This document shows, in pieces, positions 3,883 to 22,556 of a DNA stretch of 64,000 nucleotides. This DNA comes from Paludibacteraceae bacterium (GTDB taxonomy: Bacteria; Bacteroidota; Bacteroidia; Bacteroidales; Paludibacteraceae): positions 4,688 through 68,687 of the forward strand of contig JAFSQV010000014.1 in the NCBI GenBank assembly GCA_017446455.1, read 5' to 3'. The notes beneath the pieces were generated by a model. It searched no databases and was not told the origin of the DNA. It was given only the letters and a program-made list of their open reading frames with translations. The position numbers were made by a program, and so were the translations under genes. Numbering within the stretch: the first letter of the stretch is position 1; each line of letters opens with the position of its first letter.

Positions 3883-3957
<75 letters not shown>

Positions 3958-3960
3958 ACT

Positions 3961-5250
3961 ATGAGAAAGCACTTTATAATCCTCATGACTCTTTACACGC
4001 TCTCCGTTTCGGCGGTGGAGCGTGTTTCGTTAGAGCAGTTACAGGCTGATTGGTCTCGCTATGCCAATCGGATGGTTCAAGTCACGACGCCGCTCGTAGT
4101 ATGCGGTAGTTATTATGACTCTTTGATTCTGGCTCCGGAGCGCTTGTATTGTCCGGAAGAACGCGCGGTGGGTTTGGCGGACGGCGACAGTACGGACTAT
4201 TGGCGCATCCAGGCTTCTAATCGCGCGAACTCGATTTGCGTACATTGTCGTAACACTTATTATAAGGTTCGCACGGGCGATCGTGTGCGCGGGTTTCAAG
4301 CGCGCGTGACAGGTGAGCGGCATTTTGTGACGGGTGCGGGTGTGAAGACTTCGCATGTGCGTGTAACTCCGCTCGCGCGGAAGGAGAAAGATGCAGTGCG
4401 CGTGGTAGGCGCGAATGTGGAGAATCTGTTTGCGGATCTTGGCGGATATGCCACGCGGCGTACGACCCCGAAGCAGAATGCGCTGAAGTTAAGTAAAGTG
4501 GCGAAAGGACTGAAGGCGATGAAGGCGGACCTCTATGCGCTGTGTGAAGTGCAGGTGGGTGATAAAGCGCCGACGATGCTTCTGGAGGCGTTGAACAAAG
4601 GCGGTAAGAAATACGCGTATGTCTCGATGCCGATGGAGAATATGGATCGTATCGGCGGTTGTTTTATCTATCGTACGGACCGCGTGCAACCGTATGAAGC
4701 GCCGCTTTCTGCGTACGCCGATACGAGCAGCCATTACCATGCCCGTATGTTCGCGCAGGGATTTGAATGTCTCGATAAGAAAGGTCAGCCTACGGGCGAA
4801 CGCTTCATTGTCAGTCTGAATCACCTGAAGTCCAAGCGGGCAGGCCGTGGAAACTATGACACGCATCTAAAGAGAATGTCTAATGTGGATTCGCTGTTGG
4901 CGATGCTCCCGCAAGCTGTTGCACTGTATGGCGATTCGGATGTGCTGCTGTTGGGCGATTATAACTGCTATACGCAGGAGTTGCCGATTCAGGCGATTGT
5001 GCGTGCCGGTTATCCGGATCAGTTGATGCGTTTCTGTCCGGATGACTATTCGTATGTATTCCGAGGCGAGATGGGGTATTTGGACCGTTGCTTCGCTTCA
5101 CCGTCCATGGCGACGCAGGTGGTACATGTGCAACCCTGGCACGTCAATACCGATTGGTATTACCAGCATGGCGCGAATAGGTTGAAGGACAAGAGCATGC
5201 ATCGCTACGCGGACCACGAACCAATCATCGTGGATATCAAACTTCAATAA
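3961..5250 (+). CDS. secreted endonuclease/exonuclease/phosphatase (EEP) family protein
   Basis: Start was moved to ATG 3961 because the track start 3931 lies inside the tRNA. Signal peptide MRKHFIILMTLYTLSVSA and C-terminal HRYADHEPIIVDIKLQ (SDHxP-like EEP motif). Confidence 0.7.
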   Translation: MRKHFIILMTLYTLSVSAVERVSLEQLQADWSRYANRMVQVTTPLVVCGSYYDSLILAPERLYCPEERAVGLADGDSTDYWRIQASNRANSICVHCRNTYYKVRTGDRVRGFQARVTGERHFVTGAGVKTSHVRVTPLARKEKDAVRVVGANVENLFADLGGYATRRTTPKQNALKLSKVAKGLKAMKADLYALCEVQVGDKAPTMLLEALNKGGKKYAYVSMPMENMDRIGGCFIYRTDRVQPYEAPLSAYADTSSHYHARMFAQGFECLDKKGQPTGERFIVSLNHLKSKRAGRGNYDTHLKRMSNVDSLLAMLPQAVALYGDSDVLLLGDYNCYTQELPIQAIVRAGYPDQLMRFCPDDYSYVFRGEMGYLDRCFASPSMATQVVHVQPWHVNTDWYYQHGANRLKDKSMHRYADHEPIIVDIKLQ

Positions 5251-5252
5251 GA

Positions 5253-5279
5253 AAAGAGCAGTCATCGAGACTGCTCTTT
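5253..5279 (+). terminator. hairpin terminator after the EEP gene
   Basis: AAAGAGCAGTC-ATCGA-GACTGCTCTTT, an 11-bp stem directly before the att repeats. Confidence 0.6.
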
Positions 5280-5393
5280 CTGTGACCCCGCTGGGCGGGT
5301 TCTACCTTGCACCTGGCGGTGCGAGCTTCTGTGACCCCGCTGGGCGGGTTCTACCTTGCACCTAGCGGTGCGAGCTTCTGTGACCCCGCTGGG
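5278..5393. repeat. tandem array: att core plus 34-bp spacer, 49-bp period, 2 full units and a third core
   Basis: TGTGACCCCGCTGGG occurs at 5281, 5330 and 5379. Units 5281-5329 and 5330-5378 differ at one base (CCTGGCGG versus CCTAGCGG). The spacer contains the GCACC-TGGC-GGTGC mini-hairpin. Confidence 0.9.
5379..5393. repeat. attL core
   Basis: TGTGACCCCGCTGGG is identical to 49207-49221 and is followed by phage DNA. Confidence 0.8.
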
Positions 5394-5434
5394 ACTGCGC
5401 AGATTGTGAGGCCTTATTAGCGCTTGATAGGGAA

Positions 5435-5468
5435 TTTCGGGTGATTTTTCGGGTGAAATTTCGGGTAA
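5435..5468. promoter_or_regulatory. three 12-bp-phased direct repeats TTTCGGGTRA (candidate integrase arm-type sites)
   Basis: TTTCGGGTGA at 5435 and 5447 and TTTCGGGTAA at 5459, between the attL core and the int stop codon. Confidence 0.5.
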
Positions 5469-5527
5469 TAGCCGATTTTCATATTAGCGATTCACAACAC
5501 TTCGCAACAAATCCCGTCAAAATCCCG

Positions 5528-6793
5528 TCATTTTTTCTCTGCCATTCGCTTGAGCACATTCAGTTTCATTTCGTCGTCCACATCCGTGTAACGTGCAAAA
5601 GCGCGCGATCCATCTGCGTGGCCAGTGAAAGATGAAGTGATGCGCTCCGATCCGGTTTCTTTAAATATATGCATCATAAACGTGCGTCTGGCGATGTGCG
5701 AGCTGGCAATCTCCCATAGGTGCTTCGGTTTTGTCTCGAGTGTCTTTGGATCCTGGACCATGATGACGCGATCCATGCCGGCATCCTTCAGTATTTTGTG
5801 AATATCCCGATTGTACACGATGGGGTCGACGAATGGAAGCAAACGCCCATCCGGCTGCCCTTTGTATCTTGATACGATCTCCAAAGCTGTGTCGGAGAGA
5901 GGGACACGCACGACAACCGGGTGACCTTTGCGCGTCTTGCGCGCGATGTACTGCAAGAAGCCATCCTCCGTTACATTGTCCTCACGAAGCTCTATGAGGT
6001 CCGACACACGGCAACCGACGTGGCATTGAAATATAAAGATGTCGCGCTGTGCTGCCATGCTTGGAGAAAGGCCTGAAATCTCATATAAGGCATTGCGCTC
6101 GTCAAGCGTAAGGTACGTCGGTGTTCCATATACCTCGCGTGGAATCTTGTAGCCGCCAAGACCAAACGGGTCCTGCCGCATTTCTCCAATGCGGACGGCT
6201 TCCTTGCATGCGGCGCGGAGCTTCTTCATTCGCGTGACGATAGTATTCCTGCCGCGTATGATTCCGGATTCTCCTTTCTCGTTCATGAGGAACCTGACAA
6301 AAGCGGCTGCATCGTCGGCCGTGAATGTGTCGGTATATAGTTTGCCGTGTTTCTCCTCGAAGCGCTGAATATCGCGCGCAATTACCTCATATATAGCAGC
6401 GGTAGCCGGTTCGAGGTTTTTCTTGTTAGGGTACTCCATAACACATTCGTAGAGCCTGCGCCTGGCTGGTCGCCTGCTCGCATTGATCCCGCGCGCTTCA
6501 TCAATAGTCTGCTGCAGCCATCCGTCGCCGGCATCGTATTGATCCCGCCACCAAGCGTCCAGCACGGTGTTCGTCAGTTCGTCGAGTTCCTGCTGCCTTT
6601 CGCGCAGAGCGACCGCCTCCGGCGTCATTTTGCGAGGTATTGACAAACACCCATCCGCTTCGTTCCAAGCAGCCACAGGCACCGGTATGTGCGTCTTGGC
6701 GCGCTGTGAGAACGTGCCTGCGTAGAAACGCGCAAGCACCTCGGCTTGCCCATTGTACACGCGGGATGATATGCGGAACTTGAGTGTTGGCAT
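5528..6793 (-). CDS. int: tyrosine site-specific integrase
   Basis: C-terminal catalytic pattern ...SHIARRTF...FTGHADGSRAFARYTDV (R..H-x-x-R..H..Y). Start chosen at ATG 6793 (MPTLKFRISS), which overlaps the upstream stop (TGATG). The track ORF extends to a TTG at 6838. Confidence 0.85.
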   Translation of the reverse strand: MPTLKFRISSRVYNGQAEVLARFYAGTFSQRAKTHIPVPVAAWNEADGCLSIPRKMTPEAVALRERQQELDELTNTVLDAWWRDQYDAGDGWLQQTIDEARGINASRRPARRRLYECVMEYPNKKNLEPATAAIYEVIARDIQRFEEKHGKLYTDTFTADDAAAFVRFLMNEKGESGIIRGRNTIVTRMKKLRAACKEAVRIGEMRQDPFGLGGYKIPREVYGTPTYLTLDERNALYEISGLSPSMAAQRDIFIFQCHVGCRVSDLIELREDNVTEDGFLQYIARKTRKGHPVVVRVPLSDTALEIVSRYKGQPDGRLLPFVDPIVYNRDIHKILKDAGMDRVIMVQDPKTLETKPKHLWEIASSHIARRTFMMHIFKETGSERITSSFTGHADGSRAFARYTDVDDEMKLNVLKRMAEKK

Positions 6794-7047
6794 CAGTCCT
6801 TCTTTATAATGAAATCTCCCTCTCCTTTTATGATCCAATCAAGTGAGACACCAAAAACCGTAGAGAGGTAGTAGATATTATCCAAGGAACACGTCATGCG
6901 GCCCTGTTCGATCACAGAGAAATTCTGCGGAAACAGATGCACCCTTGTACAAAATTCACTCTTATTCCTTACGATACCGTCGAGATAAAGCAGTCTGTAT
7001 GCACGAATGAAACGTGCAGCGATCTCGTCTTTGATTTTCCTACCCAT
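6793..7047 (-). CDS. small HTH (XRE-like) DNA-binding protein
   Basis: 84 aa. The pattern ...KSEFCTRVHLFPQNFSVIEQGRMTCSLDNIYYLSTVFGVSLDWII is HTH_3-like. It is translationally coupled to int. Confidence 0.6.
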   Translation of the reverse strand: MGRKIKDEIAARFIRAYRLLYLDGIVRNKSEFCTRVHLFPQNFSVIEQGRMTCSLDNIYYLSTVFGVSLDWIIKGEGDFIIKKD

Positions 7048-21063: not shown

Positions 21064-21861
21064 ATGTTTGAAAAAGTGAATCCGAGCCATCCGGATAAGG
21101 TGGCGGACCGTATAGCAGGTGCGATAGTGGACCTCTGCTATAAAAAGAACGACTGCCCGAAGGTGGCTGTTGAGGTGCTCCTGGGCCACGGCCTTTGTAC
21201 CGTGATTGCCGAGACGGGCGAAGTGATAACCGAGCAGGAGGTGTGCGACATCGTTCATCGCATCGCCGGCGCACAGGAAGTGAAGTTCATCTGCGTGAAG
21301 CAAGACATCCACTTGGCGCAGAACCAGCGCAAGAACCCTCGCTGTGGTGACAACGGCATCTTTAAAGGCTCGCCGGTCAGCGCAGAGCAAGCAGAGCTCT
21401 CCAACCTCGCGCACCAACTCTACCAGAAATACCCTACTGACGGCAAGTTCATCGTGAACGGCGGCCGTCTCACCATCTGCCAATCGCAAGCCAAGAACCG
21501 CGACATTCGCAAGTTCTTTGAGGAGAAAGGTCACAAGGAGTTGACCATCAACCCTCTGGGCGAGTGGGAAGGAGGCCCGAATGTGGACAGCGGAGCGACA
21601 AACCGCAAGCTCGGAAGCGATATGGGCGATGGTGTGACCGGTGGTGGTCTGCACGGCAAGGACCTCTCGAAAGCGGATGTGTCCGTTAATATCTTCTGTC
21701 ATATCATGGCGCAAAAGACCAACCGGGACTACAGAGCCGTGTGTGCCATCGGCGACGAATACGTGAACGGCATACCTTTCGCGCAGATCGTGGGTCTGGC
21801 AAAGAACTACATCGACCAGGTTGGCGGATTTGAGAAGTTCGCTGAGTGGGGATTGATCTAA
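21064..21861 (+). CDS. compact S-adenosylmethionine synthetase (MetK)-like protein, 265 aa
   Basis: Collinear MetK motifs are present. SHPDKVADRIAGAIVD corresponds to GHPDKIADQISDAVLD, CGDNGIFKG to GAGDQGLMFGYA, INPLGEWEGGPNVDSGATNRK to [22 protein letters not shown], and GGGLHGKDLSKADVS to GGGAFSGKDPSKVDRS. The protein is ~120 aa shorter than bacterial MetK. Confidence 0.7.
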   Translation: MFEKVNPSHPDKVADRIAGAIVDLCYKKNDCPKVAVEVLLGHGLCTVIAETGEVITEQEVCDIVHRIAGAQEVKFICVKQDIHLAQNQRKNPRCGDNGIFKGSPVSAEQAELSNLAHQLYQKYPTDGKFIVNGGRLTICQSQAKNRDIRKFFEEKGHKELTINPLGEWEGGPNVDSGATNRKLGSDMGDGVTGGGLHGKDLSKADVSVNIFCHIMAQKTNRDYRAVCAIGDEYVNGIPFAQIVGLAKNYIDQVGGFEKFAEWGLI

Positions 21862-21868
21862 AACATCA

Positions 21869-21957
21869 GTGGTTAGAAAGGGCGTCTGGAAGGCGCGTCG
21901 AGGGTTAGTCACAACCTTAAGGTCGCCGTCCGTGGTTCGATTCCACGGCTAACCACT
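21869..21957 (+). ncRNA. tRNA-like element 1 (non-canonical; class II/Sec-like features)
   Basis: 8-9 bp acceptor-like helix GTGGTTAG/CTAACCAC and a perfect T-arm CCGTGG-TTCGATT-CCACGG. The D-like hairpin is GCGTC-TGGAA-GGCGC. There is a 6-bp helix AGGGTT/AACCTT closing AGTCAC (TCA centred) and a 12-nt extra arm. It does not fold as a standard 7-nt anticodon loop. Confidence 0.45.
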
Positions 21958-21961
21958 TACA

Positions 21962-22035
21962 TCGCAGGATGGAGCAACTGGATAGACTCACGAGTATTGT
22001 ACCCGGCATGTGTAGGTTCGAATCCTACTCCGCAA
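21962..22035 (+). ncRNA. tRNA-like element 2 (degenerate; possible pseudo-tRNA)
   Basis: Good D-arm (GAGC-AACTGGATAG-ACTC) and T-arm (GTAGG-TTCGAAT-CCTAC). The loop-like ATTGTAC would give anticodon TGT, but the flanking stem does not pair and the acceptor helix needs a bulge. Confidence 0.35.
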
Positions 22036-22052
22036 CTAACATCTAAACAACT

Positions 22053-22556
22053 ATGGCACAGGAGCTTTGGCAGATAGCTAAACCATTCGGCAGACCGAGG
22101 AAATTCAAAACGCCCAAGGAACTATGGGACGCTTTCATCGCGTATGTCGAGTGGGCTGAAAACAACCCGATAACGGTTGGAAACGAGCGTCGCCAAAAGC
22201 AATCAGCCAAAAGAGGAGAGGAAAAAGCGCAGAGAAAGGAAACGGCTCCGCGCCCCTACTCTCTTGTGGCATTCCGTATACATGCCGGCATCAAACGCGA
22301 CTGGGCAACATTCGCGGCGACTTACTCCAAGAGAAGCCATGACTTTTGTGGAGTCATACAAGCCATCGAAGAGAGTGTCCGCCAGCAGATGGTCGAGCAG
22401 GCTATGGTTGGCAACTACAAAGAGAACCTCGTAGCACGCATCAACGGCATCTCCGACAGCATCAAGCAGGAGGTGAAAGCCGATGTTCAAGCCCGGACAT
22501 CGTTGAGCGTGGGCGAGGCACAAGCGTTCCTTGAGGAATTGGAAAAGACGATCTAA
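22053..22556 (+). CDS. terS: terminase small subunit (putative)
   Basis: PFGRPRKFKTPKELWDAFIAYVEWAENNP is a typical TerS N-terminal HTH. It lies directly upstream of and overlaps TerL. Confidence 0.6.
   Translation: MAQELWQIAKPFGRPRKFKTPKELWDAFIAYVEWAENNPITVGNERRQKQSAKRGEEKAQRKETAPRPYSLVAFRIHAGIKRDWATFAATYSKRSHDFCGVIQAIEESVRQQMVEQAMVGNYKENLVARINGISDSIKQEVKADVQARTSLSVGEAQAFLEELEKTI

What the first reader, a model, noticed from the sequence alone, without database searches (positions are those of the whole stretch)
21869..22035. Two tandem tRNA-like elements with perfect T-arms but non-canonical anticodon regions, one with UCA centred in its loop
Two elements with canonical T-arms (GGTTCGATTCC and GGTTCGAATCC) and D-like arms lie between the MetK-like gene and terS. 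Element 1 (89 nt) has an 8-9 bp acceptor helix, a 5-bp/5-nt D hairpin and a 6-bp anticodon-type helix closing AGTCAC. It also has a 12-nt extra arm. These features recall class II/selenocysteine-type or suppressor tRNAs rather than a standard elongator. Element 2 has a loop ATTGTAC (would-be anticodon UGU), but its anticodon stem does not pair and its acceptor helix needs a bulge. Its 3' strand (CTCCGCAAC) mimics the host initiator tRNA. They may be unusual functional tRNAs (an opal or frameshift suppressor), decoys for anticodon nucleases or tRNA-targeting defences, or decayed tRNA genes.
Basis: seen in the sequence. Interest (0 to 1): 0.6.

Follow-up and report, generated by a model that had tools for sequence, protein, structure and literature searches.

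The report
Phage tRNA-shaped RNA plus dead initiator tRNA
Between two prophage genes lie a conserved RNA that has the shape of a tRNA but cannot read codons, and beside it the decayed remains of a phage "start" tRNA; the first belongs to a small RNA family I could not find described, and its job is unknown.

Summary
Both T-arm motifs are real: GGTTCGANTCC occurs 4 times in the window against 0.11 expected by chance. ARAGORN and Rfam call neither element a tRNA.

Element 1 (21871-21955) is not a suppressor tRNA. It is one of 9 distinct members of a small RNA family in related Bacteroidales phage contigs, always just after the mini-MetK module.
- The acceptor, D, T and anticodon-like helices all show compensatory changes: 96.8% of cells pair and 7 pairs change on both sides.
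- The core evolves more slowly than synonymous sites of the neighbouring gene.
- The "anticodon" loop varies from 6 to 13 nt, lacks U33, and has no conserved anticodon. UCA is present in only 7 of 9.

Element 2 (21963-22035) is a degraded copy of a phage initiator tRNA-Met(CAU), which is intact right after element 1 in seven of the nine relatives. A model of those tRNAs gives intact copies 93-102 bits and element 2 only 27.7.

The function of element 1 is unknown. My best guess is a non-decoding tRNA mimic cut out by tRNA-processing enzymes. The scan has noted analogous RNAs before terS in Firmicutes phages.

The parts
21064..21861 (+). Mini-MetK (SAM synthetase-like, 265 aa) gene. It is the constant upstream neighbour of element 1. 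Its stop codon lies 9 nt before G1 of element 1.
   Evidence: ORF list. Pfam S-AdoMet_synt_N, E 5e-11. The same gene lies upstream of element 1 in L008, L104, L117, L118 and L120.
21871..21955 (+). Element 1: a non-decoding tRNA-shaped RNA, from G1 to the discriminator A. It is one of 9 distinct members of the family.
   Evidence: Model R1 scores it 105 bits and its relatives 83-117 bits, while true tRNAs score about 18-21 bits. Covariation is shown. ARAGORN and Rfam do not call it a tRNA. Relaxed ARAGORN gives the boundaries 21871-21956.
21871..21876 (+). Element 1 acceptor helix, 5' strand GGTTAG. It pairs with CTAACC at 21949-21954.
   Evidence: Six pairs, 98% of cells paired, 2 pairs with changes on both sides (GGGCAG/CTGCTC in L120, GGGTAG/CTACCC in L008).
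21881..21899 (+). Element 1 D-like arm: stem GGCGT/GCGTC (two G.U pairs in the window) closing the loop CTGGAAGGC. TGGAAGGC is invariant in the family.
Evidence: the second pair is G-C, G-U or A-U; the innermost pair is C-G, U-G or A-U, with mismatches in 2 of 9.
21901..21918 (+). Element 1 anticodon-like arm: a 6-bp helix in the window closing AGTCAC. Only the basal 3-4 pairs are kept in the family, and the loop is 6-13 nt with no conserved anticodon.
   Evidence: Identity of this arm to the window copy is 25-83%, against 82-94% for the core.
21919..21929 (+). Element 1 conserved single-stranded variable region, AAGGTCGCCGT.
   Evidence: Nearly invariant in alignment A5. No conserved stem.
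21930..21948 (+). Element 1 T arm: 6-bp stem CCGTGG/CCACGG with the canonical loop TTCGATT.
   Evidence: 100% of cells paired. One compensatory C-G to G-C change in L008. Motif statistics.
21963..22035 (+). Element 2: degraded remnant of a phage initiator-type tRNA-Met. It keeps C1xA72, the A11:U24 pair and a perfect T arm (22012-22028). It has lost the anticodon stem and the CAU anticodon, has a 1-nt deletion in the 3' acceptor strand, and has a 3-nt insertion in the D loop.
   Evidence: Alignments (27.7 bits against 93-102 for intact copies). Rfam tRNA matches only the T arm, 14.5 bits. Fold z-score +1.3. 66-73% identical to intact copies.
22053..22556 (+). terS (small terminase), the downstream neighbour and first gene of the packaging and late block.
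   Evidence: Pfam GP3_package, E 8e-13. Homologues P0001-P0049.
3883..3957 (+). Host initiator tRNA-Met(CAU), intact. It is the closest cellular relative of the phage tRNA that element 2 descends from. It is not part of the prophage.
   Evidence: ARAGORN and Rfam, 63.4 bits. 92.8 bits on the phage initiator-tRNA model R2. The integrase lies at 5528-6838 on the minus strand, with a host-type gene in between.

Best explanation
The gap holds a two-gene RNA cassette of a Bacteroidales phage lineage.

Element 1 is a conserved RNA of about 85 nt that folds like a tRNA. It has a 6-bp acceptor helix stacked on a 6-bp T stem, which gives the same 12-bp stack as the 7+5 of a normal tRNA. It also has a canonical T loop and a D arm whose loop carries invariant GG dinucleotides, so the tRNA elbow can form. 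Its 'anticodon' arm is only a spacer helix with a freely varying loop, so it cannot decode.

Element 2 is what remains of a phage-borne initiator tRNA-Met. In most relatives that tRNA is intact and starts 8 nt (or about 100 nt) after element 1.

Inferred, not shown:
- Both lie on the sense strand with no promoter or terminator of their own. I infer that they are transcribed with the MetK-to-terS message and cut out by the host's tRNA-processing enzymes: RNase P at G21871, RNase Z or exonucleases at the 3' end, then CCA addition.
- What is selected in element 1 is the tRNA body, not a codon-reading function.
- My committed guess at its role is a tRNA mimic that acts through its body. Either it serves as a processing and end-forming 'punctuation' element at the early/late junction (about 35%), or it binds a specific tRNA-recognising partner (about 25%).

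Loss of the phage initiator tRNA in this prophage is tolerated because the host copy is intact.

The confidence figure refers to the identity claims: element 1 is a conserved non-decoding tRNA-shaped RNA, and element 2 is a degraded initiator tRNA. The specific role is much less certain, as the percentages above show.
For: - Family and synteny: element 1 homologues lie in the same place in L008/L130, L104/L105, L112, L117, L118, L119, L120/L121 and L122.
- Covariation: 96.8% of cells pair. Seven pairs change on both sides, against 0-2 when the partners are slid. The covariation score is 0.253 against 0.114 in shuffles (0 of 500). Every helix has at least one compensatory pair.
- G.U pairs, such as the two in the window's D stem, work only on the + strand RNA.
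- Purifying selection: core identity is 82-94%, against 62-86% at synonymous sites of the adjacent MetK gene.
- Non-decoding: loops are 6-13 nt, and U33 and an anticodon are not conserved. Relaxed ARAGORN assigns inconsistent anticodons. There is no Rfam match at E<=10 in any member.
- Element 2: an intact initiator-type tRNA-Met (C1xA72 or C1xC72, A11:U24; Rfam 50-59 bits) follows element 1 in 7 of the 9 distinct members. The window copy scores 27.7 bits against 93-102.
- Element 1 persists where the tRNA is lost (L104/L105) or decayed (the window).
- No promoter or terminator consensus flanks the elements.
Against: - There is no transcript evidence.
- There are only 9 distinct sequences in about 4-5 lineages. 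Alignment A5 was fitted to the model structure, which inflates the pairing counts.
- Plain 'punctuation' does not explain why the connector AGAAAGG, the D loop TGGAAGGC and the variable region are nearly invariant.
- A specific partner has not been identified.
- Related phages do without the cassette (L113-115, L116, L123-127), so it is accessory.
- Element 2 keeps a perfect T arm and most of its acceptor, so it may not be entirely inert.
Confidence: 0.7

Rival explanations
1. Element 1 is an unusual decoding tRNA: an opal (UCA) suppressor, a selenocysteine-type tRNA or a frameshift suppressor.
For: In the window, UCA sits in the loop AGTCAC. An 8-bp acceptor can be drawn and the variable region is long. 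Relaxed ARAGORN will call a tRNA there.
Against: - Loop length is 6-13 nt across homologues and U33 is absent. UCA is missing in L119 and L120.
- The two extra acceptor pairs break in 3 of 9 members, with no compensation.
- No tRNA or tRNA-Sec model matches at E<=10.
- terS, terL and the other late ORFs are open under the standard code.
- ARAGORN's anticodon calls disagree between homologues.
Confidence: 0.03
2. Element 1 is a decoy for an anticodon nuclease or another defence that recognises the anticodon loop of tRNA-Met/fMet or tRNA-Asp.
For: Many loops contain UCAU (5 of 9) or GUC (8 of 9). The element sits beside a phage initiator tRNA whose anticodon loop differs from the host's at positions 32 and 38. 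Phage tRNAs are known to counter tRNA-targeting defences (PMC10264068, PMC11555353).
Against: The loop is the least conserved part of the RNA in both length and sequence, the opposite of what a loop-specific decoy needs. No such nuclease has been identified in this host.
Confidence: 0.1
3. Element 1 is a regulator whose loop pairs with the terS start-codon region, acting as an antisense RNA or a mimic of the initiator anticodon, to control late-gene translation.
For: In L112, L117 and L008 the loop forms an 8-9-bp duplex with the terS start region (about -11 kcal/mol). It ranks first among ORF starts in those loci, with shuffle p of 0.003-0.019. A loop U-to-G change matches GCA-to-GCC in terS between L112 and L117.
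Against: There is no such pairing in the window (-3.7 kcal/mol, p 0.34), L104, L118, L119 or L120. L130 has the same loop as L008 but a 2-nt insertion breaks the duplex. The cases are related to each other, so they are not independent tests.
Confidence: 0.07
4. Both elements are neutral wreckage: tRNA pseudogenes drifting in an intergenic slot.
For: Element 2 clearly is degraded. The slot between MetK and terS varies between phages.
Against: The core of element 1 is more conserved than synonymous sites next door, and its helices show compensatory changes. It is retained in lineages that lost the tRNA.
Confidence: 0.04
5. The conserved sequence acts as DNA: a cos/pac or attachment site next to terS that contains tRNA-gene fragments.
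For: The position directly upstream of terS fits. Integrative elements often carry 3' halves of tRNA genes. Three Logan contigs end about 200 nt upstream.
Against: - Covariation includes G.U pairs, which would be A/C mismatches on the other strand.
- A full cloverleaf is present rather than a 3' fragment.
- The integrase and the prophage border are 16 kb away.
- The 3' end of the host tRNA-Met has no second copy in the window.
Confidence: 0.03

Closest known systems
Canonical bacterial tRNA (Rfam RF00005)
   Same: Cloverleaf order of helices, a 12-bp acceptor/T coaxial stack, the T loop UUCGAUY, GG in the D loop, a size like class II tRNAs, and a location in a phage tRNA slot.
   Different: A 6+6 split instead of 7+5 for the stack. 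A 4-nt connector (AAAG) with no U8. No 7-nt anticodon loop, no U33 and no conserved anticodon. An 11-nt unpaired variable region. It fails ARAGORN and the Rfam model in all 9 members.
Bacterial initiator tRNA-fMet, including copies carried by phages
   Same: Element 2 and its intact relatives share C1xA72 (or C1xC72), A11:U24 and the AGG/CCU anticodon stem of the Bacteroidales initiator. The host initiator scores 92.8 bits on the phage model.
   Different: The window copy has lost the anticodon stem and CAU and has indels in the D loop and the acceptor. It scores 27.7 bits, lower than an unrelated tRNA-Ala (52.5 bits).
Phage T4 stable RNAs species 1 and 2 (rnaC, rnaD) in the tRNA gene cluster (from my own knowledge)
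   Same: Small non-decoding RNAs encoded beside phage tRNA genes and matured with them. Their function is still unknown.
   Different: There is no sequence relationship. The T4 RNAs are larger and are not cloverleaf-shaped throughout. Processing of element 1 is untested.
t-elements of plant mitochondria and other tRNA-like processing signals (PMC1920247); mascRNA-type tRNA-like RNAs
   Same: tRNA-shaped structures without decoding function that RNase P and RNase Z use to form mRNA ends. This fits the sense-strand position between two coding blocks and the free anticodon arm.
   Different: They come from a different domain of life. Those elements are poorly conserved in sequence, whereas the loops and connectors of element 1 are nearly invariant. 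Cleavage has not been shown here.
tRNA-like domains of tmRNA and of bacterial Y RNA-like YrlA
   Same: Mimicry of the acceptor/T/D 'top half' of tRNA without an anticodon.
   Different: No Rfam match to either. tmRNA carries an ORF and pseudoknots. In YrlA the termini lie in the Ro-binding stem, not the acceptor. No Rsr or SmpB context is present here.
Non-decoding tRNA-shaped RNAs before terS in Firmicutes phages, noted earlier in this scan (e1-3601482, e1-1965242, e1-2646223; unchecked AI notes)
   Same: The same kind of object in the same genomic place: tRNA-derived, anticodon domain lost, next to working phage tRNAs, upstream of or at the terminase genes.
   Different: Different hosts (Bacteroidales here). 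No shared sequence words with element 1. Those notes describe islands of several elements, whereas here there is a single element plus one tRNA.

Membership tests
Canonical tRNA (RF00005) | Covariance-model score at or above the gathering threshold (29 bits), or an ARAGORN call | tested here: not met
   There is no ARAGORN call in the window gap. Rfam matches only the T arm of element 2, at 14.5 bits, E 4.6. No element 1 homologue matches at E<=10.
Canonical tRNA (RF00005) | 5-bp anticodon stem closing a 7-nt loop with U33 and a defined anticodon | tested here: not met
   Element 1 loops are 6-13 nt, and position 33 would be U, A or G. The element 2 stem has 1 of 5 pairs.
Canonical tRNA (RF00005) | Acceptor/T stack with T loop, and a D arm with GG able to form the elbow | tested here: met
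   Element 1 has a 6+6 bp stack, the T loop TTCGATY and the D loop TGGAAGGC, all conserved with covariation.
Bacterial tRNA-Sec (RF01852) | 8-bp acceptor plus 5-bp T stem, 6-bp D stem with a 4-nt loop, UCA anticodon, long variable arm | tested here: not met
   The extra acceptor pairs are not conserved. The D stem is 4-5 bp with a 9-11-nt loop. UCA is absent in 2 of 9. The variable region has no stem. There is no model match.
Bacterial initiator tRNA-fMet (element 2) | Unpaired 1:72, A11:U24, G-C-rich anticodon stem, CAU anticodon | tested here: not met
   C1xA72 and A11:U24 are retained. The anticodon stem and CAU are lost, and the 3' acceptor strand has a 1-nt deletion. Relatives meet all the features.
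The new element 1 family (model R1) | Match to the family covariance model, and synteny after the MetK module | tested here: met
   The window copy scores 105 bits, E 7e-24, within the family range of 83-117. The next best hits are true tRNAs at about 20 bits.
tmRNA / YrlA tRNA-like domains | Match to the Rfam models; tag ORF, or a Ro-binding stem holding the termini | tested here: not met
   Only sub-noise local matches to the T arm (cyano_tmRNA 11.2 bits against a gathering score of 70).
tRNA-like processing elements (t-elements) | Cleavage by RNase P at the 5' end and by RNase Z at the 3' end of the tRNA-like fold in vivo | not testable with these tools
Only the structural prerequisites are shown.

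The most novel reading that the evidence does not exclude
Element 1 is a trans-acting tRNA-body mimic with a dedicated partner. It would be recognised through its invariant connector, D loop and variable region by a host or phage tRNA-binding protein, such as a defence nuclease that reads the tRNA body or 3' end, a synthetase, or a modification enzyme. Together with the phage initiator tRNA it would form a cassette that protects or reprograms translation initiation during infection. It would then be the Bacteroidales counterpart of a general, undescribed class of non-decoding tRNA mimics placed before terS in temperate phages.
Probability: 0.2. Interest if true: 0.8.

Novelty: new variant of a known kind. 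Interest (0 to 1): 0.55.

Why it matters
Phage tRNA genes are now read mainly as countermeasures to tRNA-targeting immunity or as codon supplements. Conserved phage RNAs that keep the tRNA body but have given up decoding do not fit either reading. They point to a function of tRNA shape itself: processing, sequestration of a tRNA-binding factor, or something unknown.

This family is small, compact (about 85 nt) and has a clear covarying structure. It also comes with natural 'experiments': lineages with and without the partner initiator tRNA, and with and without the cassette. That makes it a tractable entry point.

The result also has a practical side. Standard annotation pipelines miss element 1 entirely. 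With relaxed settings they would mislabel it with arbitrary anticodons, and they would mislabel element 2 as a tRNA.

Tried and rejected
- Rfam at gathering and at E<=10 on the window and on 8 related loci: no family for element 1.
- Searches for more members mostly failed:
  - exact 25-mers in IMG/VR;
  - terS protein in IMG/VR;
  - BLAST of the gap against 60 relatives;
  - model R1 against the window's own genome and 150 genomes of the family;
  - a pattern against 400 genomes of the order;
  - INPHARED phages.
- The pattern scan of genome contigs gave only chance hits upstream of ordinary tRNAs.
- Searches used a pattern that required GGTTCGANTCC, so they could not see the GATCCC variants. 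Those collections are therefore under-searched.
- One IMG/VR scan was wasted on a mistyped spacer.
- The Heliusvirales phages that share the mini-MetK gene have a different gene order and no such element.
- I tested the idea that element 2 is an att-site fragment of the host initiator tRNA and dropped it.
- I considered a 'private start codon' reading for element 2 (altered-anticodon initiator tRNA, as in earlier scan notes) and rejected it. Its anticodon arm does not fold and terS starts with ATG.
- A variable-arm hairpin and the MFE pairing of GGCG with CGCC in element 1 are not conserved (by eye).
- Pairing of the loop with the terS start is inconsistent across the family.

Full report
**1. 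What is at the coordinates**

The stretch 21862-22052 is an ORF-free gap between a 265-aa mini-MetK gene (21064-21861; Pfam S-AdoMet_synt_N) and terS (22053-22556; Pfam GP3_package), followed by terL.

The gap contains GGTTCGATTCC (21934) and GGTTCGAATCC (22015). This T-arm motif occurs four times in the 64 kb against 0.11 expected. The other two copies lie in a real tRNA-Ala and in the tmRNA.

ARAGORN finds four tRNAs and a tmRNA in the window but nothing in the gap. Rfam at gathering thresholds finds nothing there. At E<=10 it finds only the isolated T arm of element 2, at 14.5 bits against the 29 needed.

Folded alone, element 1 is moderately stable (-34.1 kcal/mol, z -2.4). Element 2 is less stable than its own shuffles (z +1.3).

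**2. Relatives**

The terL protein led to IMG/VR contig L008, which has the same gene order. After MetK it has a 72%-identical copy of element 1, then a bona fide tRNA-Met(CAU).

A pattern scan of metagenomes and the contexts of terS homologues gave more copies. Element 1 is present in L008/L130-133, L104/L105, L112, L117, L118, L119, L120/L121 and L122. With the window that makes 9 distinct sequences.

In every case it lies 8-10 nt after the stop codon of MetK, or in L117 after a small ORF that follows MetK.

In seven of the nine distinct members, ARAGORN and Rfam (50-59 bits) call an intact tRNA-Met(CAU) after it. It starts 8 nt downstream in L112, L117, L118, L119 and L122, and about 100 nt downstream in L008/L130 and L120. 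These tRNAs have C1xA72 or C1xC72, A11:U24 and the same AGG/CCU anticodon stem as the host initiator. They are therefore initiator-type.

L104/L105 have element 1 but no tRNA. Related phages L113-115, L116 and L123-127 have neither, and carry small ORFs in the slot or none at all.

**3. Element 2**

Element 2 aligns with these phage tRNAs and with the host initiator tRNA (window 3883-3957). The alignment includes the flanks ACATCGC... and ...GCAACTAA.

A covariance model of the eight intact phage copies (R2) gives these scores:

| Sequence | Score (bits) |
|---|---|
| Intact phage copies | 93-102 |
| Host initiator tRNA | 92.8 |
| Unrelated host tRNA-Ala | 52.5 |
| Element 2 (21963-22037) | 27.7 (E 4e-6) |

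So element 2 is a recognisable homologue but a broken one.
- The anticodon stem has 1 of 5 pairs, and CAU is gone.
- The D loop has a 3-nt insertion.
- The 3' acceptor strand has lost one base, leaving a bulged A.
- It keeps C1xA72, A11:U24 and a perfect T arm.

It is only 66-73% identical to any intact copy, whereas the close relatives are 93-99% identical to each other. That is more divergence than the 84-86% synonymous-site identity of the neighbouring gene would predict. It is therefore an old or fast-decaying remnant, possibly of a different allele.

The host tRNA is not the prophage attachment site. The integrase lies at 5528-6838 on the minus strand, a host-type gene lies in between, and the tRNA's 3' end is not repeated elsewhere.

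**4. Element 1: structure**

I built a model from the nine sequences (R1). It finds only the family, at 83-117 bits (window 105). True tRNAs reach about 18-21 bits.

On the structural alignment A5:
- 96.8% of cells form standard pairs.
- Seven of 21 pairs change on both sides, against 0-2 when the partners are slid by 1-3 columns.
- The covariation score is 0.253 against 0.114 in shuffles (0 of 500 reach it).
- Each of the four helices has at least one compensatory pair.

Caveats: there are nine related sequences, and the alignment was fitted to the model.

The consensus structure is:
- a 6-bp acceptor helix (GGTTAG/CTAACC; GGGCAG/CTGCTC in L120; GGGTAG/CTACCC in L008);
- a 4-nt connector, AAAG;
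- a D stem of 4-5 bp (GGCGC/GCGCC, GACGC/GCGTC, GGCGA/TCGCC) closing a loop with invariant TGGAAGGC;
- an anticodon-like arm whose basal 3-4 pairs covary;
- an 11-nt conserved single strand, AAGGTCGCCGT;
- a 6-bp T stem with the loop TTCGATY.

The 6+6 bp stack equals the 7+5 of a normal tRNA. The G.U pairs (two in the window's D stem) make sense only for the + strand RNA.

Only 68% of cells pair, there are no compensatory changes, and where those positions vary they break.

**5. Element 1: selection, and why it does not decode**

Outside the anticodon-like arm, the window copy is 82-94% identical to its relatives. Synonymous sites of the adjacent MetK gene in the same genomes are 62-86% identical. 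For L008 the figures are 0.82 against 0.62, and for L104 0.89 against 0.63. The core is therefore under purifying selection.

The anticodon-like arm is 25-83% identical. Its loop is 6, 6, 10, 12, 12, 12, 12, 12 or 13 nt long. None of the loops is a 7-nt loop. The base before the candidate triplets is U, A or G. UCA occurs in 7 of 9, UCAU in 5 of 9 and GUC in 8 of 9.

ARAGORN at 85% thresholds, or with 'introns' allowed, does call the element (window 21871-21956). But it assigns Asp, a 4-base GUCA, Arg, Stop, Val, Met, Asn, Leu, Gln or SeC in different homologues. There is no conserved anticodon.

The late genes are open in the standard code. The suppressor, selenocysteine-type and frameshift readings are therefore rejected.

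**6. What it does**

*Shown:* a conserved, covarying, tRNA-shaped RNA gene on the sense strand. It sits in an accessory slot at the junction of the early (methylase and MetK) and packaging modules. It has no promoter or terminator consensus of its own. It is usually paired with a phage initiator tRNA but is retained without it.

*Inferred:* it is transcribed with its neighbours and excised by RNase P and RNase Z and finished by the CCA-adding enzyme. All the features those enzymes read are the ones conserved: the acceptor/T stack, the T loop and the D-loop elbow. The part they ignore is free to vary.

For its role I rank the options as follows.
- **(a) Processing and end-forming punctuation, about 35%.** This would resemble mitochondrial t-elements (PMC1920247). 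It would also explain why the decayed element 2 has kept exactly its top half.
- **(b) A mimic that binds a specific tRNA-recognising partner through its invariant connector, D loop and variable region, about 25%.** That degree of invariance is more than simple punctuation needs. tRNA-targeting defences and phage tRNA countermeasures are well documented (PMC10264068, PMC11555353, PMC13056530, PMC12851939).
- **(c) A decoy for anticodon-loop nucleases, about 10%.** This is disfavoured because the loop is the least conserved part.
- **(d) Pairing with the terS start region, about 7%.** It is strong in L112, L117 and L008 (-11 kcal/mol, shuffle p 0.003-0.019, ranked first among ORF starts, with one matching substitution). 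It is absent in the window and four other members, and it is broken in L130.

Neutral decay and a DNA-level cos, pac or att role are contradicted by the covariation and the G.U pairs.

**7. Comparison with what is known, and novelty**

Element 1 fails the membership tests for tRNA, tRNA-Sec, tmRNA and YrlA. It works most like non-decoding tRNA-shaped RNAs such as the T4 stable RNAs in the tRNA cluster (from my own knowledge) or t-elements.

I found no paper describing this family in four library searches. It has no Rfam family.

Earlier notes of this scan (unchecked) describe analogous non-decoding tRNA-derived RNAs before terS in Firmicutes phages. The theme has therefore been seen before on other DNA. 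This Bacteroidales family shares no sequence words with them.

I rate it a new variant of a known kind, of moderate interest. Element 2 alone is ordinary: a tRNA pseudogene.

**8. Limits**

- Family members come from only 9 distinct sequences.
- The large collection scans used a pattern that missed the GATCCC variants, so the family's true spread is unknown.
- It was not found in the window's own genome outside this site, in 150 genomes of the family, in 400 of the order, in INPHARED, or in IMG/VR beyond one contig.

Noticed in passing
window 21859-21871; L008 2832-2845; L104, L117, L118, L120 equivalents: The distance from the stop codon of the upstream ORF to G1 of element 1 is 8-10 nt in every lineage. 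A ribosome terminating there would cover the 5' strand of the acceptor helix. This could be simple compaction, or a coupling between upstream translation and folding or processing.
   Followed up: no
L112 395, L117 2500, L008 3506 (terS starts) against the element 1 loops: In three family members the anticodon-like loop is complementary to 8-9 nt around the terS AUG (about -11 kcal/mol, best target in the locus). A loop U-to-G change matches a GCA-to-GCC change in terS. The window shows no such pairing.
   Followed up: partly
element 1 loops in all members (window 21907-21912): The triplet GUC is present in 8 of 9 loops and UCAU in 5 of 9. This hints that the parent was a tRNA with a GUC or CAU anticodon, but the flanking loop positions are not tRNA-like.
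   Followed up: partly
L112, L119, L122 (contig ends): Three independent Logan contigs end about 200 nt upstream of element 1, inside the 3' part of the MetK gene. This is probably an assembly-graph fork at a MetK segment shared by many phages (69-79% DNA identity to Heliusvirales phages). A physical genome end was not excluded.
   Followed up: no
slot between MetK and terS in L113-115, L117, L118, L120, L105, L008: The slot is a variable accessory region. Different relatives carry a 124-aa ORF, an Amidase_2 gene, or 70-115-aa ORFs there, with or without the RNA cassette.
   Followed up: no
L112 333-339, L117, L118, L119, L120, L008 (anticodon loops of the phage tRNA-fMet): The intact phage initiator tRNAs differ from the host initiator at loop positions 32 and 38 (AUCAUAG, UUCAUAU or CUCAUAU against the host's CUCAUAA). 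This is the pattern reported for phage tRNAs that evade anticodon nucleases (PMC10264068).
   Followed up: no
L117 about 2165-2235; L118 about 2225-2265: Strong hairpins follow the phage tRNA-Met in some relatives (two GTCAAGC...GCTTGAC hairpins in L117). They may be terminators or processing signals. The window has none.
   Followed up: no
window 3883-6838: The host initiator tRNA-Met (3883-3957) is followed by an Exo_endo_phos-family gene (4012-5250) and then the prophage integrase (5528-6838, minus strand). The prophage border is near 5.3-5.5 kb, not in the tRNA.
   Followed up: partly
window 21886: The window copy of element 1 has C where the other eight members have A at the first D-loop position, the equivalent of tRNA A14. 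It also has two C-to-T changes that turn D-stem G-C pairs into G.U pairs. The copy still scores within the family range (105 bits).
   Followed up: partly
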